From IMG/VR virus record IMGVR_UViG_3300008120_000241, positions 12,843-76,842 of that record: a stretch of DNA of 64,000 bases; one strand, given 5' to 3'. The position numbers and the translations under genes are program-made. Positions 15,026 to 41,826 of the stretch are shown in pieces; position 1 is the first letter of the stretch; every line of letters starts with the position of its first letter. Source of the stretch: a virus. Below the pieces are notes generated by a model. The model worked only from the letters and a program-made list of their open reading frames with translations, was not told the DNA's origin and searched no databases.

Positions 15026-15047
15026 TTAAAAGTTATATTTATCATAT

Positions 15048-18000
15048 ATGAAAGATTTGATTTCAGAAATACAGACAATGAGAAATAGGATGGGTTTAAA
15101 AAACGTATCTACACCAAAAATATTGAGTGAAGCATCAATACCTACCCCATTATGGAATAAACTGGCTAAGTATTTTGATGAACTAATACTCGGCAGTGAA
15201 AAATCATTAGATGATTTGGCAAAAAAAGGAGTAATCACAAATGAAGAATTACTTTGGTTAAAGAAGAACGCTTCAGAAATTTCTAGAAAGGCAAAAAATA
15301 TTGTAGACCCAAATACAAACGAGTATATATTAAAAAAGTTTAAAACCATCACACAAAATGTCACAGAAGATGAACTTGAAAAATTATCAAAAATAGGTTT
15401 TGAAACTTGGTTAGAAAAAAATCCAAAGACACTAGAACCCATTGACGCTTTAACTGATAAAATTTCTAAATTAATAGAAGAATTTTCAAGTACTGGTAAA
15501 ATACAAAATGATCCGGAATTAACTAAATACTTAAATAATGGTGGTACCTGGGAGGATTTGTTCAAAAGTACTTTAGAAAGTGAAGGCTATAAAGATGAGT
15601 TATTGGATTTTGCCCTGGAAAGATTTAAAAAAAATATTCAAACAAAAATAGTTAAAACCGAACCTTTAAATGTGGAAAATATCATAGAAGATAAAATTAA
15701 TAAACTTTTAAATGACCCAACGTATAAAGATTTAAATAGTTTAGAGAAGTTAAAAAAAATTAATACATTAAAAAAAGAATTAATAGACGAGTTAAAACTC
15801 AAACAACAAGATAAAACACTTTCTGCTAAAATTTCAGAAAAGGAAATTGAAAAATTAGTAGATGATAAGTTGGAATCCCTTTCTGGTACTATTGAGACAT
15901 TTTACACAAAAAAGGGTGTAACTGATTTTTTATTATCGGTTAAGGGTGTCGGTAACTTACTTGATGAATTTATATCTCTTGGTCAATTATTTAATTCTAC
16001 CGCCGAAAAAAACATAACAACATTAAAAAATGATATTTCAGATATCATTGTGTTAATTGATAGGTCTGATTTAACTGAAAATTACTATAGAGAGGTTGCA
16101 AATAAAATAAAAGCACTTTCAAGTAATGCTAGAAAAACAAAAGAATCTGTTACTAAATTTTGGGATGATTTAAAGAAATTAATTACTGAAGCATTTCCGA
16201 ATGACCCTAAAAAAGCTCAAGACATAATAAATAAAATAGGGGGGCCAAACAAACTAGATGAGTTTTTCACTAAAACTAACCAATACGTTGAGGTTGGTGA
16301 TAGAATTAAGGAGACGTGGCAAAAAATTTTAGACGCTTTTGGTAAATTTAAAAGTCTAAATAAAGAAGTTGGAGATATGAGTAGTAATGTCTTAAAATTT
16401 GGTGAAGGTCCGGCAAAAAGATGGGTTAATTTTATTGCCAGTGGGAGTTTTACATCATTTAAAGAATGGACACAAAGATTAGCACAGAGAAGAAAATTTT
16501 TGTTTGTAGGGAAAGAGGTACAAGGATTTAGTTGGAAGTCTTATTTTGATATGTATTGTAGGATATGGTTTGTTACTAATCTTGCGGTACCTATGGTTAC
16601 TTCTTTCTTGTCCGCAGTAGGGTTGTGGTTTTTAACGGCTGTTGGTAAATTAACCGGTATTGGTGATGAGACAAAATATTTTACTGAAAATAAAAACAAA
16701 TCTATAGGTGAACTTTGGGGTGAGTTTTATAGTGATTCAATAAAATCTAGTTTAATACCTTTTATTGATGATTATAATGGAAAAATGGAAGGTAGTTTCC
16801 CACAAAATATTGAACAATGGGGTAAATGGGCTACTGATTTTGTAGGTGCAATAATCCCTTTCAATACAAAAATTGATGATATTGCTGATTTTATATTTAA
16901 CACACCTGAATACCTATCAAAAGCGGAACAAATTAAAAACGAACAAGTTAAAAAAGGTGAGGATACACTTGAAAAGGTTTCAGACAAATTAAAAGGAAAG
17001 GATAAAGTGTTTGCGGATAAAAACAACGAAGAGTTAACCAAAACAAACAATAATATTAAAGTAAAAGAATATAAAAATACAATAGTAGATGGATTAAACA
17101 ATAGGTATTATATTTTCACAAATAAAGAAATAGGTACCATGCCATCAACAGAAGAAAGGGTAAAATTATTTAATAAAATAAAATATGAGGGTAAACCTGG
17201 AACATTTGAACAAGATAAATTTTTTATTACAATAAATGGTAAAAAATATAAATTTGTTGATAACACATTCTATGAAGACCCAACCACAGGAAAACAAGGA
17301 AACTGGAAAGACCTAGGTGGAAGACTTTACGAAAACAAAAATAACATTATGAAAGATTTACTTAAAAAAATCATTTTGGAAGAGGAAGAAGAAAGAACTC
17401 TTAAAATGAAAGATTGGGATGAAATATTCACATTCCAAAAGATGGATGAAAAAAATCCAGGAAAATACACTGAGGTAAAACTTAAAATGGATTCTGTTAT
17501 GGATAGAATGCCTCATTGGAGAAAGAAATATAAAAAGGAATGTGAAGATATGGATAATTGTGATGATGATGGTGAAGATGATTCATTTGTTAGAGCAGTT
17601 ATTGATACACACCCAGAAGTCGTTAGAATCCTATTTACAAAAGGTTTAGCTCATTTAACTTCCAGTGAAGAACAAGAAGATCTAAATGAAGGTTTACACA
17701 AATTATTGGCCGTTATTAGAGAAGCTAAAAGTGTTGAGGTTGAGGTTTGGTCTGTTTACAGACACCCATCAAGTCCGGATAAAATCTGGTCATTGGTTAA
17801 AGGTGATTACAAACCAAAGGAACTAGCTTCAATGGATGTTAAAATGCAACAATCACCACAAAATTCAGTAGAACCAAAAAAAAACTCACTTGATGAGTTA
17901 AAAAAAAAAGAATCTGAAGCAATAAAAATATTGTCAACAGATGAAAAAAAAGGTTTAAATGAACTTCCAATAAAAGTAAGGAATGTTGTTAAAGAAAAAA

Positions 18001-18302
18001 TAAAAAGAGGTTGGACAACGGAAAAACCATCCGATAAGTTAATTAATTTTTTTAAGAAATCCGAAGTTGAATCCGCTTTGATTGACTCAATTGATATTTA
18101 TAAATTAAAACCAACCAAAGAATTCTTTAATTTCATTACCGATAACAAAACGGAAGATTCAATTAAAAGAGGTTTTTGTAGATCAATTTATTACGTTAAA
18201 AAAGAAATTGATTTGGAAGGAAAAGTGATGGAGAGAGTAGATGATATTTTAGATAAATGTCAAAATAAATTTGACGGAAAATACGGACAAAATTATATCT
18301 AA
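15048..18302 (+). CDS. Large helical protein with central hydrophobic segment (putative ejected/internal virion protein)
   Basis: 1084 aa; TATTTAT 5 nt before ATG; leader ISEIQTMRNRM; TM-like IWFVTNLAVPMVTSFLSAVGLWFLTAVG. Confidence 0.7.
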   Translation: MKDLISEIQTMRNRMGLKNVSTPKILSEASIPTPLWNKLAKYFDELILGSEKSLDDLAKKGVITNEELLWLKKNASEISRKAKNIVDPNTNEYILKKFKTITQNVTEDELEKLSKIGFETWLEKNPKTLEPIDALTDKISKLIEEFSSTGKIQNDPELTKYLNNGGTWEDLFKSTLESEGYKDELLDFALERFKKNIQTKIVKTEPLNVENIIEDKINKLLNDPTYKDLNSLEKLKKINTLKKELIDELKLKQQDKTLSAKISEKEIEKLVDDKLESLSGTIETFYTKKGVTDFLLSVKGVGNLLDEFISLGQLFNSTAEKNITTLKNDISDIIVLIDRSDLTENYYREVANKIKALSSNARKTKESVTKFWDDLKKLITEAFPNDPKKAQDIINKIGGPNKLDEFFTKTNQYVEVGDRIKETWQKILDAFGKFKSLNKEVGDMSSNVLKFGEGPAKRWVNFIASGSFTSFKEWTQRLAQRRKFLFVGKEVQGFSWKSYFDMYCRIWFVTNLAVPMVTSFLSAVGLWFLTAVGKLTGIGDETKYFTENKNKSIGELWGEFYSDSIKSSLIPFIDDYNGKMEGSFPQNIEQWGKWATDFVGAIIPFNTKIDDIADFIFNTPEYLSKAEQIKNEQVKKGEDTLEKVSDKLKGKDKVFADKNNEELTKTNNNIKVKEYKNTIVDGLNNRYYIFTNKEIGTMPSTEERVKLFNKIKYEGKPGTFEQDKFFITINGKKYKFVDNTFYEDPTTGKQGNWKDLGGRLYENKNNIMKDLLKKIILEEEEERTLKMKDWDEIFTFQKMDEKNPGKYTEVKLKMDSVMDRMPHWRKKYKKECEDMDNCDDDGEDDSFVRAVIDTHPEVVRILFTKGLAHLTSSEEQEDLNEGLHKLLAVIREAKSVEVEVWSVYRHPSSPDKIWSLVKGDYKPKELASMDVKMQQSPQNSVEPKKNSLDELKKKESEAIKILSTDEKKGLNELPIKVRNVVKEKIKRGWTTEKPSDKLINFFKKSEVESALIDSIDIYKLKPTKEFFNFITDNKTEDSIKRGFCRSIYYVKKEIDLEGKVMERVDDILDKCQNKFDGKYGQNYI

Positions 18303-18307
18303 AAGTT

Positions 18308-18904
18308 ATGGAAACAAATTTATTTAAAAAAGATAAGGATTTACAATATTGTGAAACATCAATAAAGGATTTTTATGACAGATATCAAACCTTCTATAAC
18401 AAATATGAAAAAAATATCCAACCACAACCAACTTCAGTTGATAGTGATTTACCGGATAATATAAATGATTTATCTGAAGAAAAAAAAGTTGATCTTGAAA
18501 AACAAAAAAAGATTGTAAATGATTGTATTGAAACTTACACTAGAAAGTTTAAACGAAATATATTCAAAAAAAATCTTAATAAAGAAATCATACAATTAAC
18601 AAATCCAGGAGGAAAAGTTAGACCTTTTTTTAGAATTGATGCTCAACTTGCTGAATCAACAGATATTTATAATAAAACAAATGATATGAGTATTTCTAAT
18701 TCTATCAAAAAAGTTCTTACAGAACAAGTTGAAATCAAAAAACAAAATTTAACGGAAAGAAATATAATTAATGATAGAATCAATTTTATTTTGGAAGACA
18801 CCAATAACCAAAGACTTAATTTAATTAACGAAGCAAAAAAATTAATTAACAACGGATATAACAAAACTATTGTTAAAGAAATAGTGAATCAATACTTAAA
18901 ATGA
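18308..18904 (+). CDS. Hypothetical protein
   Basis: 198 aa; internal TATTTAT (18664-18670) and in-frame ATG 18686. Confidence 0.7.
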   Translation: METNLFKKDKDLQYCETSIKDFYDRYQTFYNKYEKNIQPQPTSVDSDLPDNINDLSEEKKVDLEKQKKIVNDCIETYTRKFKRNIFKKNLNKEIIQLTNPGGKVRPFFRIDAQLAESTDIYNKTNDMSISNSIKKVLTEQVEIKKQNLTERNIINDRINFILEDTNNQRLNLINEAKKLINNGYNKTIVKEIVNQYLK

Positions 18905-19036
18905 TATCGCATTACCATCTGCGATTAACAAGGACGATGGTAGGATTTTTAGGTAGAACTATTAGTCCATAAACCTTAAAGAAAGGGAGGTGTTCAAAAT
19001 CTAAGAAAGGTGACTCTAGAGTCGCCTTTTCTTTTT
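18905..19036 (+). ncRNA. Candidate structured small RNA with an extended Shine-Dalgarno-like tract and terminator
   Basis: ATCGCA/TGCGAT stem; GGACGATGGT/ACTATTAGTCC stem; AGAAAGGGAGGTGTTC at 18980-18995; terminator GAAAGGTGAC-TCTAGA-GTCGCCTTTTC plus T-tract. Confidence 0.5.
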
Positions 19037-19052
19037 GGGAGTATTTATGGTT

Positions 19053-19397
19053 ATGGAGTTTTTTATAAGAAAAAATAGTACATTACCCTTACTTCAAGTT
19101 AACATCACAAAAAACCTTAGAGTTGATTCGTCGACCGATAATTTGGATGACAGTGTTATCTATTTTTATATGAAAGATGTTGAAACTGATGTATTTAAAA
19201 TAGCAAAAGAAGATGCTTATTATGAGGCTGGTTCAATAACTTATCAATTTACAAAAAAAAACACAAGTAAGATTGGTAGATTTGAAGGTTATTTTAAAAT
19301 AGAAAATGAAGAAGGACTAATTGATTTACCAGTAGGTGATAAATTATACATAAACATTATAGATTCATTTAGTAATAGTGAGTTTTGTTGTAAATAA
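19053..19397 (+). CDS. BppU-like baseplate/tail-fibre adaptor
   Basis: MEFFIRKNSTLPLL..ITYQFTKKNTSKIGRFEGYFKI..LP pattern; directly before fibre gene. Confidence 0.5.
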   Translation: MEFFIRKNSTLPLLQVNITKNLRVDSSTDNLDDSVIYFYMKDVETDVFKIAKEDAYYEAGSITYQFTKKNTSKIGRFEGYFKIENEEGLIDLPVGDKLYINIIDSFSNSEFCCK

Positions 19398-25518: not shown

Positions 25519-25931
25519 TGGTGGACCTAGTGAGCTCCGACTCTCACGTCCGGTTCGTCTTGTTTAAAAGACAACTACATGCTTAGGTTGGTATTTTCTA
25601 ATACCCCAAACTATTTGGTTTTTTTTTGACCAAAAACAAAGTTAATTTGTTCTTCACCATCGTAAATTAACAACCAATGGATGACTCAATTTTGGGTTTA
25701 GTCATTCTCTACCTTTGTTGAGACTTCTGTTCCAAGGTTATGTGTCCACCGACCCGCCGTTTCCGTACCTAATCTAGGCTACAGTAACTTCTTCAGTTGC
25801 AATTAAACCAACCACTGAAAGGTTATCTAATACGTTGCCGTATATTGTTTGAATCAGTTTTTAACGAGATTAATTCAGTCCCGGCATGCTCCCTTTATTC
25901 AACCAACGCCCGTCAAATCCGATATAGGCCC
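25519..25931 (-). ncRNA. ssrA: tmRNA (transfer-messenger RNA)
   Basis: 5' GGGCCTATATCGGATTTGACGGG pairs with 3' TAGGTCC-ACCA including a G3-U wobble; T-arm GTGAG..CTCAC; internal tag ORF 25839-25774 GNVLDNLSVVGLIATEEVTVA*; TACCTTTG promoter upstream. Confidence 0.9.
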
Positions 25932-41396: not shown

Positions 41397-41653
41397 GTAA
41401 ATTTATAAAATCATTGTTGGGTTCCGGAACACAAACGTTATCATCAAAAAGATTTGTTGGGATTTTGTGTGTACTATCACTAATCACGGCTTTATTCATT
41501 TCCTTATTCTCAAAAGGTAAATTTTGTCCCAATGATGGTATTGTTGACGTTATCGGTTTACTTGCGTTTGGTACACTTGGTTTAACTTCAACTGAATCTA
41601 TTTTTGGAAAAAAATATGACAACAAAAAAAGTAACGATCAAGAAGAAATTTGA
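41393..41653 (+). CDS. Small two-TM membrane protein (holin-like candidate)
   Basis: SSKRFVGILCVLSLITALFISLF and IVDVIGLLAFGTLGL; charged C-tail. Confidence 0.55.
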   Translation: MSKFIKSLLGSGTQTLSSKRFVGILCVLSLITALFISLFSKGKFCPNDGIVDVIGLLAFGTLGLTSTESIFGKKYDNKKSNDQEEI

Positions 41654-41826
41654 TTTTTTTGTTTGTACTGTGCTTTCTTTTTTTCTTCTCTTTTAATTAC
41701 AGACGGTTTTACAAATTCCTTTCTTTCTTGAAGTTGTTGAATTTGTTTTGTTTTGGAAACCTTAAACTTATATTGTTTAAGTGCTTGCTCCAATGATTTT
41801 TCATTTTTAACGGGAATAATTATCAT
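41638..41826 (-). CDS. rpsU: Phage-encoded ribosomal protein bS21
   Basis: MIIIPVKNEKSLEQALKQYK.K..K..QIQQLQERKEFVKPSVIKR (Bacteroidota-type S21); antisense within head module; TATTTAT promoter at 41845-41851. Confidence 0.88.
   Translation of the reverse strand: MIIIPVKNEKSLEQALKQYKFKVSKTKQIQQLQERKEFVKPSVIKREEKKKAQYKQKNQISS

What the first reader, a model, noticed from the sequence alone, without database searches (positions are those of the whole stretch)
18905..19036. Structured intergenic RNA carrying an extended complement of the Bacteroidota 16S anti-Shine-Dalgarno tail, with no start codon behind it
Seen: an unusually GC-rich spacer with hairpin ATCGCA-TTACCATC-TGCGAT whose loop can pair with GATGGTAG (18936-18943), which alternatively pairs in GGACGATGGT/ACTATTAGTCC; then AGAAAGGGAGGTGTTC (18980-18995) and a terminator. 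Established (from memory): Bacteroidota 16S ends ..GGAACACCUCCUUUCU, complement AGAAAGGAGGUGUUCC, so the match is 10 nt perfect (GGAGGTGTTC) plus AGAAAG with one bulge. In this phylum the anti-SD is sequestered by bS21/bS18/bS6, and rpsU autoregulates through a strong SD. I saw no SD before genes in this window, and no ATG/GTG lies at SD spacing here. Inference: a phage sRNA or 3'-UTR that captures 30S subunits with an exposed anti-SD (e.g. lacking host bS21), possibly working with phage bS21 to remodel or titrate ribosomes.
Basis: partly seen in the sequence, partly recalled or inferred. Interest (0 to 1): 0.74.

Follow-up and report, generated by a model that had tools for sequence, protein, structure and literature searches.

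The report
Phage RNA mimicking a super Shine-Dalgarno
A group of giant freshwater phages that infect Flavobacterium-like bacteria carries a conserved, folded, non-coding RNA. Its exposed middle can pair with the whole 3' tail of the host's 16S ribosomal RNA, yet no gene follows it, so it is probably a ribosome-binding decoy rather than a translation start.

Summary
Window 18905-19036 is the 3' untranslated end of a late structural operon (genes 15048-18302 and 18308-18904).

It folds into four parts:
- a hairpin whose loop forms a pseudoknot
- a second hairpin
- an open tract of about 36 nt
- an intrinsic terminator

All the helices are supported by compensatory changes. The open tract AGAAAGGGAGGTGTTC complements the Flavobacteriaceae 16S end GGAACACCUCCUUUCU, with 15 pairs and one bulge.

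I found the element as 30 distinct sequences in 53 loci from freshwater phage contigs. It occurs once per genome and always lies behind the same, very divergent gene. No variant has a start codon at Shine-Dalgarno (SD) spacing, and no ORF is conserved across it. It has no Rfam match, was not found in 121 sampled host-family genomes, and I found no paper on it.

The phage's own genes lack SDs. The predicted pairing (-19.8 to -29.1 kcal/mol) equals or exceeds that of host rpsU leaders (-17.1 to -21.6).

Best reading, at about 0.5: an RNA that pairs with the 16S tail. It would compete with rpsU mRNA for ribosomes lacking bS21, or evict bS21.

The link to phage bS21 is loose. Two near-complete genomes carry the element but have no bS21 gene. 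Neither expression nor binding has been tested.

The parts
18906..18925 (+). P0 hairpin: stem ATCGCA/TGCGAT with an 8-nt loop TTACCATC
   Evidence: Sequence. Five of 6 pairs show changes on both sides across 14 relatives. Examples: ATCGCT/GGCGAT, ATACCG/CGGTAT, TTTGC/GCAAA.
18936..18943 (+). 3' strand of the pseudoknot. GATGGT pairs with loop ACCATC (18914-18919).
   Evidence: All 6 pairs show compensatory changes. Examples: GTCATC/GATGAC, TTGTTGG/CCAACAA, GCCGTT/AACGGC, GTTGGT/ACCAAC.
18943..18968 (+). P1 hairpin: outer stem GGATT/AGTCC, inner stem TAG/CTA, loop GTAGAA. It ends 1 nt before ATAAAC.
   Evidence: Predicted in 30 of 31 distinct variants with the same 26-nt geometry. Seven of 9 pairs show double changes and 92% of cells are paired. 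The G.U pairs fit the + strand only.
18969..18975 (+). Conserved ATAAAC(C/A) motif at the start of the open region
   Evidence: Invariant ATAAAC in alignment A3. It was used as a search anchor in some scans. It is independent of the pattern used, where it recurs.
18978..18995 (+). Extended SD-like tract AAAGAAAGGGAGGTGTTC, complementary to 16S nt 1530-1544
   Evidence: The tract is intact in 8 members found with flank-only patterns. The only changes seen (A/G at 18988, C/T at 18995, G-run of 5, 6 or 8) keep the pairing.
18998..19004 (+). Conserved AATCTAA (AATCTAG in one type), 2-3 nt behind the tract. Its function is unexplained.
   Evidence: The next base is free (G, T, A or C).
19006..19036 (+). 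Intrinsic terminator: A-tract, 10-bp stem, loop CTAG, T-run
   Evidence: Six of 10 pairs are compensatory across 24 sequences.
15036..18904 (+). Upstream transcription unit: TATTTAT box at 15036, gene 15048-18302 (family F2), gene 18308-18904 (family F0). The element is its 3' end.
   Evidence: The element lies 16-77 nt behind the upstream gene's stop; that gene is of family F0 in 13 of the 16 representative loci examined (types A, B and E). Promoter-like box.
19042..19055 (+). Next unit, not part of the element: TATTTAT box and the conserved start ATG at 19053
41638..41826 (-). Phage bS21 gene (62 aa), a possible functional partner. It has no SD and a TATTTAT box upstream.

Best explanation
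The element is the folded 3' end of a late phage messenger, possibly released as a small RNA of about 130 nt. A 5' pseudoknot-plus-hairpin domain and a 3' terminator hairpin hold open a purine-rich tract. That tract can form 14-16 base pairs with the entire single-stranded 3' tail of the host 16S rRNA.

In Bacteroidia this tail is normally buried under bS21, bS18 and bS6. It is used for one known purpose: ribosomes lacking bS21 read the extended SD of rpsU mRNA and so restore bS21.

I propose that the phage RNA is a start-codon-less 'super-SD'. It would bind tail-exposed 30S subunits, or force the tail out and bS21 off. In doing so it would outcompete rpsU mRNA and disturb or reprogram host bS21 homeostasis late in infection. 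Where the phage has its own SD-less bS21 gene, that protein could then fill the ribosomes.

Shown here: the anatomy, conservation, covariation, single copy, absence of coding potential, complementarity, and the SD-less context.

Inferred only: transcription of the element, binding to 30S, and every downstream effect.
For: 1. Complementarity to a verified 16S tail. Duplex energies for 16 variants are -19.8 to -29.1 kcal/mol with 14-16 bp. Thirty Flavobacteriaceae rpsU leaders give -17.1 to -21.6. The phage tract pairs on to G1530/G1529, further than any of those rpsU leaders.
2. Strong purifying selection. There are 30 distinct sequences in 53 loci and 17 distinct cores, while the adjoining protein is only 17-40% identical. 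Members found without using the tract in the pattern all keep it. Observed substitutions keep pairing through G.U.
3. RNA-level architecture with covariation. In the 5' domain, 18 of 21 pairs show double changes and 0/500 shuffles reach this. In the terminator, 6 of 10 pairs do. The G.U pairs fit the + strand.
4. One copy per genome. The element scores 74-91 bits and the next best hit about 22 bits.
5. Not an RBS. No start codon lies at SD spacing in any variant, and indels of 1-2 nt break every frame.
6. The phage is SD-less. Its bS21 genes have no SD.
7. Feasibility from published work. An SD oligo binds F. johnsoniae 30S (PMC7797042). The 13-bp rpsU helix excludes bS21 (PMC13000457). rpsU translation needs the ASD (PMC13000453).
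8. bS21 is present in 10 of 16 element-bearing contigs, most of them fragments.
Against: - No RNA data: no RNA run holds the stretch.
- The tract's duplex energy is not an outlier genome-wide.
- The same 15-mer is a normal RBS elsewhere.
- Single-sequence folds give the tract only 0.36-0.62 mean unpaired probability. The ATAAAC(C/A) motif could partly mask it.
- Two near-complete genomes (89% and 96%) have the element but no bS21 gene.
- No variant matching the alternative Chryseobacterium-type ASD was found, so natural covariation with the 16S tail is untested.
- The conserved AATCTAR and ATAAAC motifs and the GUAG loop are not explained by tail pairing alone.
Confidence: 0.5

Rival explanations
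1. Cis-acting messenger stabiliser. A 30S subunit docks on the SD-like tract of the 3' UTR, or the pseudoknot domain acts by itself, and protects the long late structural mRNA from nucleases. This would resemble STAB-SD and polypurine stabilisers, with no effect on host bS21.
For: The element is always at the 3' end of the same operon and occurs once per genome. Start-codon-less SD stabilisers are known (PMC4113751). The compact covarying pseudoknot could block an exonuclease. The element occurs without phage bS21.
Against: Known SD stabilisers sit near the 5' end and block 5'-to-3' decay. This tract lies behind the coding region and already has a terminator hairpin. Bacteroidia ribosomes are normally blind to SDs, so docking would be rare. 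A stabiliser has no obvious need for 15-16 bp reaching G1530.
Confidence: 0.15
2. A trans-acting small RNA whose purine-rich seed pairs with pyrimidine-rich sites in host or phage mRNAs, for example the C-rich 5' ends of rpsU leaders. The match to 16S would then be a side effect.
For: The layout is typical of 3'-UTR-derived sRNAs: a 5' structure, an open conserved seed and a terminator. rpsU leaders begin with CCUCC-like stretches.
Against: No target was identified. The seed matches the 16S tail over 15-16 nt, including the Bacteroidota-specific GAACAC. 16S would be by far the most abundant partner in the cell.
Confidence: 0.12
3. A start-stop mini-cistron. The SD places a ribosome on AUC (18999-19001), directly followed by UAA, and parks it there.
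For: AUC lies 8-9 nt behind GGRGG, the usual start spacing. In ordinary RBSs with the same tract an ATG is typically 6-8 nt behind GGAGG in the rows shown. The stop is kept as UAA or UAG while the next base varies. Start-stop sites exist in E. coli (10.1101/520783).
Against: AUC is a very poor start codon. If the full helix to G1530 forms, only 3 nt separate it from AUC. With rpsU-like spacing (10 nt) the P site holds CUA or UCU, depending on the variant. The spacer length varies by 1 nt.
Confidence: 0.08
4. A binding site for a phage or host protein, or a DNA-level signal such as a promoter or regulatory site. The SD likeness would be incidental.
For: Several conserved motifs are not explained by 16S pairing: ATAAAC, AATCTAR and the GUAGNN loop.
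Against: Helices covary at the RNA level with strand-specific G.U pairs. The tract tolerates G-run lengths of 5, 6 or 8, which is odd for a protein site but acceptable for a helix with a bulge. There is no TATTTAT or TAnnTTTG box in the core.
Confidence: 0.1
5. Chance SD-like sequence in a spacer that happens to hold a terminator.
For: Similar duplex energies occur by chance a few times per genome.
Against: The element is conserved in 53 loci while the flanking protein has diverged to 17-40% identity. It is single-copy, keeps a fixed position, and has covarying helices around an invariant core.
Confidence: 0.02

Closest known systems
Extended SD of rpsU (bS21) mRNA in Flavobacteriales, the bS21 autoregulatory circuit (PMC9976891, PMC13000457, PMC13000453)
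   Same: Both have long complementarity (9-13 bp in rpsU, 14-16 bp here) to the 16S 3' tail in an otherwise SD-less system. They share the AAAGA(A/G)AGG(A/G)GGT core.
   Different: The element has no start codon and no rpsU gene behind it. It lies in a phage 3' UTR between a pseudoknot domain and a terminator. Its pairing extends to G1530/G1529. No sequence likeness beyond the SD core was established.
STAB-SD / polypurine 5' mRNA stabilisers of Bacillus and phage SP82 (review PMC4113751; the SP82 case is from my own knowledge)
   Same: An SD sequence not used for initiation that is thought to bind the 16S 3' end.
   Different: Those lie near the 5' end of the messenger in SD-using Firmicutes and block 5' exonuclease. 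This one is at the 3' end, in an SD-blind host, and much longer.
3'-UTR-derived small RNAs and RNA sponges or decoys of bacteria (general class, from my own knowledge)
   Same: The layout is the same: a conserved open seed in front of the mRNA's own terminator. The idea of titrating a partner is also shared.
   Different: The proposed partner is the ribosomal RNA tail itself, not an mRNA, sRNA or protein. I found no described natural case.
icaR 3' UTR of Staphylococcus aureus (PMC3868564)
   Same: A 3' UTR element that acts through SD/anti-SD complementarity.
   Different: icaR carries an anti-SD-like UCCCC motif that masks its own SD. This element carries the SD side, and no partner in its own mRNA is known.
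Start-stop sites (10.1101/520783)
   Same: An SD followed at start-codon spacing by a codon and an immediate stop.
   Different: The codon is AUC, not AUG, GUG or UUG, and the spacing varies.

Membership tests
Ordinary ribosome binding site (SD plus start codon) | Complementarity to the anti-SD of 16S rRNA | tested here: met
   15 pairs with one bulge to GGAACACCUCCUUUCU.
Ordinary ribosome binding site (SD plus start codon) | ATG, GTG or TTG 4-15 nt downstream, opening an ORF | tested here: not met
   None in any of the 30 distinct variants. Indels of 1-2 nt break all frames.
rpsU-type extended SD leader | At least 9-13 bp with 16S nt 1532-1544 | tested here: met
   -17.5 kcal/mol with 1532-1544; 14-16 bp with the full tail.
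rpsU-type extended SD leader | Lies in the short 5' leader of a bS21 gene, about 10 nt before AUG | tested here: not met
   It lies behind gene 18308-18904 and in front of a terminator. The phage bS21 gene is 22.6 kb away and has no SD.
rpsU-type extended SD leader | Preferentially bound by ribosomes lacking bS21 | not testable with these tools
   Needs biochemistry.
STAB-SD / 5' stabiliser | SD-like sequence without a start codon | tested here: met
STAB-SD / 5' stabiliser | Position near the 5' end of the protected mRNA | tested here: not met
   It lies at the 3' end of the unit that starts at the box at 15036.
3'-UTR-derived / terminator-bearing small RNA | Intrinsic terminator shared with the upstream gene, and a conserved open seed | tested here: met
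3'-UTR-derived / terminator-bearing small RNA | Detected as a discrete transcript or processing product | tested here: inconclusive
   No RNA run holds it. There is no promoter box directly upstream in the window; L029 has one.
Any Rfam family | Match at the gathering score | tested here: not met
   No match at gathering score. The best sub-threshold hits score 20 bits against cut-offs of 75-100.
Start-stop mini-cistron | Canonical start codon directly followed by a stop at SD spacing | tested here: not met
   The codon is AUC. The stop is kept as UAA or UAG.

The most novel reading that the evidence does not exclude
The RNA is a phage-made decoy for the 16S rRNA 3' tail, a natural 'anti-anti-SD' RNA. 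By forming a helix longer than the one rpsU mRNA makes, it strips or excludes host bS21 and shuts off the host's only SD-dependent gene. This would convert host ribosomes into a phage-serving form. They would be refilled with phage bS21 where one is encoded. Alternatively they would be left bS21-free and suited to the near-leaderless late phage messengers, whose TATTTAT box lies 4-19 nt before many ATGs.
Probability: 0.3. Interest if true: 0.92.

Novelty: new variant of a known kind. Interest (0 to 1): 0.8.

Why it matters
Two questions are open: why Bacteroidia keep a hidden anti-SD, and why many phages encode bS21. Recent work shows the hidden tail serves bS21 autoregulation.

A conserved phage RNA that is a better partner for that tail than rpsU itself would be the first sign that phages attack this circuit at the RNA level. 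It would also be a rare natural case of a non-coding RNA aimed at a ribosomal RNA tail.

The hypothesis can be tested directly with the F. johnsoniae tools already published: 30S binding, toeprinting, rpsU'-gfp reporters, ASD-ablated ribosomes and cryo-EM. Whatever its function, it defines a new structured RNA family with a covariation-supported pseudoknot for Rfam-type curation.

Tried and rejected
- Rfam at gathering and E-value thresholds gave nothing. ARAGORN found no tRNA.
- RNAalifold on a MAFFT alignment paired the tract with the 3' strand of the terminator, with no covariation. I rejected this as the main fold because the local terminator is far stronger and the window's own stem does not fit.
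- The GTG mini-ORF (GTG TTC AAA ATC TAA) is not conserved; some relatives read GTG TTC TAA. The frame from ATA at 18971 is broken by indels.
- GGGAG before ATG 19047 as an SD is not conserved, and the real start is 19053.
- Expression: no RNA holder is listed. Two metatranscriptome runs laid on the stretch gave nothing.
- A search for a variant matching the alternative ASD (UCUCA) gave only random hits.
- A search for independent families with the perfect 15-mer gave mostly ordinary RBSs.
- The host-genome search with model R1 found only plain terminators.
- The F0 protein alignment was too divergent for a locus search.
- The genome-contig scan with phage bS21 found one locus, in Olleya.
- bS18 and bS6 homologues were not found in 5 phage records.
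- The exact 22-mer of the 16S end matched only 14 of 201 Bacteroidota genomes. Many may lack an assembled 16S gene, so this says little.
- Read-through (antitermination) and 16S-tail-mimic (minus strand) ideas: rejected. The downstream gene is convergent in types B and E, and the layout and G.U pairs fit the + strand.

Full report
**Setting**

The window is part of an IMG/VR virus record of 76.8 kb, estimated 26% complete. Its tail-fibre gene is distantly related to Flavobacterium phages. The window encodes a tmRNA and a bS21 gene.

The finding covers the spacer between the TGA stop of ORF 18308-18904 and the end of a T-run at 19036.

**The observation**

A Flavobacteriaceae genome (Olleya sp.) reads GGCTGGAACACCTCCTTTCT and then AGAG. 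Published F. johnsoniae oligos give the same end.

AGAAAGGGAGGTGTTC (18980-18995) can therefore pair with nt 1530-1544. This gives 15 pairs with one bulged G, or 13 contiguous pairs. The predicted energy with the 16-nt tail is -22.6 kcal/mol.

The phage's genes are indeed SD-less. Upstream regions of 59 predicted genes pair with the tail less well than random intragenic windows do (mean -1.4 against -3.4 kcal/mol).

Two corrections:
- The spacer is only mildly GC-richer than its flanks.
- GGGAG at 19037 is not an SD. Relatives lack it, and the conserved start is the ATG at 19053, which follows a TATTTAT box.

**Is it more than chance?**

On energy alone, it is not.
- A coding site in the window reaches -21.2 kcal/mol.
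- In the 292-kb relative G001 the element ranks only fourth, although it is the only one of the top sites outside an ORF.
- The 15-mer GAAAGGRGGTGTTCC is an ordinary RBS in many other phages.

The case rests on comparative evidence.

**A conserved family**

Pattern scans of viral and metagenome contigs found the element in 53 loci. These comprise 30 distinct sequences and 17 distinct cores (tally). The samples named in the run search are mainly lake water and freshwater, and the viral contigs reach 292 kb.

A scan that specified only the flanks (ATAAACC ... AATCTAAGRAAGG) recovered eight further members. All of them have the tract intact.

Variation within the tract is limited to three kinds:
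- A/G at 18988, opposite U1537
- C/T at 18995, opposite G1530
- G-run length of 5, 6 or 8

In one type the match is 16 contiguous pairs with no bulge.

Meanwhile the protein encoded just upstream (family F0) is only 17-40% identical among the same loci. In a metagenome holding several strains, only window 18968-19012 is shared at 90% or more.

A covariance model gives one hit of 74-91 bits per phage record, with the next best hit at about 22 bits. The element is therefore single-copy. The same model finds only plain terminators in 121 Flavobacteriaceae genomes.

**Anatomy**

From 5' to 3', in window coordinates:
- P0 hairpin, 18906-18925.
- Pseudoknot: the P0 loop (ACCATC) pairs with GATGGT at 18936-18941.
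- P1 hairpin, 18943-18968, with loop GTAGAA.
- Open region beginning ATAAACC, which holds the SD-like tract (18978-18995).
- AATCTAA at 18998-19004.
- Intrinsic terminator, 19006-19036.

On an alignment of 14 relatives, 18 of 21 pairs in P0, the pseudoknot and P1 show changes on both sides. Of all cells, 82.8% are paired, against 69% in shuffles (0 of 500 reach this) and 35-52% when partners are slid.

P1 is predicted in 30 of 31 distinct variants with the same geometry. Its G.U pairs fit only the + strand. The terminator has 6 of 10 compensatory pairs.

No reading frame survives the 1-2 nt indels among variants. No variant has ATG, GTG or TTG 4-15 nt behind GGRGG.

**Context**

The element lies 16-77 nt behind the upstream gene's stop. 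That gene belongs to family F0 in 13 of the 16 representative loci examined. The next gene differs between types: same strand in type A, convergent in types B and E.

A promoter-like (A)TATTTAT box precedes many genes by 4-19 nt. Of 70 boxes, 31 lie within 60 nt of a predicted start. One box sits at 15036 and one at 19042. The element is therefore the 3' end of a late unit, 15036-19036.

The phage bS21 genes examined keep Tyr54 and have the box plus an A-rich leader, but no SD.

**Comparison with the host circuit**

Thirty Flavobacteriaceae rpsU leaders show the published extended SD: AAAGA(A/G)AGGAGGT, then 10 nt, then ATG. Their duplex energies are -17.1 to -21.6 kcal/mol. The phage tracts reach -19.8 to -29.1 kcal/mol and pair further into the tail.

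Three published findings bear on feasibility:
- F. johnsoniae 30S binds an 11-nt SD oligo, though slowly.
- The 13-bp rpsU helix is mutually exclusive with bS21.
- rpsU translation needs the ASD.

These make binding, and competition with rpsU, plausible. None of this was tested here.

**Limits**

- Co-occurrence with phage bS21 is partial. It is present in 10 of 16 element-bearing contigs. It is absent from two near-complete genomes, G002 (89%) and G067 (96%), even with a phage bS21 profile.
- Fourteen other bS21-bearing fragments lack the element, though they are only 7-57% complete.
- No RNA data exist for the stretch.
- The ATAAAC and AATCTAR motifs and the GUAG loop remain unexplained. AUC-UAA as a start-stop is a minor rival. 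AUC lies at normal spacing from GGAGG, but only 3 nt from the end of the full helix.

**Literature and novelty**

Searches found the bS21 and ASD papers, the bS21 phage paper (which does not mention this RNA), STAB-SD and the icaR 3' UTR. They found no phage RNA aimed at the 16S tail.

An earlier first-stage note of this scan (e1-6001149) describes the same kind of element in another genome.

**Verdict**

This is a genuine, new, covariation-supported phage RNA family. It is most likely a non-initiating 'super-SD' that engages the 16S 3' tail (confidence about 0.5). Its precise role, and its tie to phage bS21, remain open.

Noticed in passing
window 25519-25931 (-): Phage-encoded tmRNA: Rfam RF00023, 78 bits, full length. 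ARAGORN did not call it.
   Followed up: no
window 41638-41826 (-): Phage bS21 gene of 62 aa that keeps Tyr54. It has a TATTTAT box 18 nt upstream and an A-rich leader without an SD. The bS21 genes in relatives L140 and L141 look the same.
   Followed up: partly
window-wide, e.g. 452, 2123, 15036, 19042, 26000, 48816: The (A)TATTTAT box occurs 70 times. Of these, 31 lie within 60 nt upstream of a predicted start, and 13 lie only 4-6 nt before the ATG. This suggests a late promoter that gives leaderless or near-leaderless mRNAs.
   Followed up: partly
L155 (Olleya sp. contig) and loci L157-L186: Many Flavobacteriaceae genomes hold 2-3 bS21 paralogues. The second copy in Olleya is the nearest bacterial relative found for the phage bS21 (55% identity). 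It also has an extended SD (AGAGAGGAGGT, then 10 nt, then ATG).
   Followed up: partly
window 18308-18904 and homologues (alignment A4): The very divergent F0 proteins share a short motif: ES.II.NR..FI.E ... GYNKTIV. Some end right after it and others carry about 150 further residues. The L001 homologue has an N-terminal carboxypeptidase-regulatory-like domain.
   Followed up: no
L088:4810-4890 (-) and L117: A possible distant variant (27.7 bits). It has AATAAACA, then AGGAGGTGTTCC, then a hairpin with a T-run, but no AATCTAA motif.
   Followed up: no
L006, L012, L027, L151 (short-spacer members): The P0/pseudoknot pairing (GCCGTT with AACGG[C/T]) lies partly inside the 3' end of the F0 coding sequence, and its 3' strand overlaps the stop codon.
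   Followed up: no
L020:3134-3147 (+): In one type B locus the element's terminator is directly followed by what looks like the 3' end of a tRNA gene on the opposite strand.
   Followed up: no
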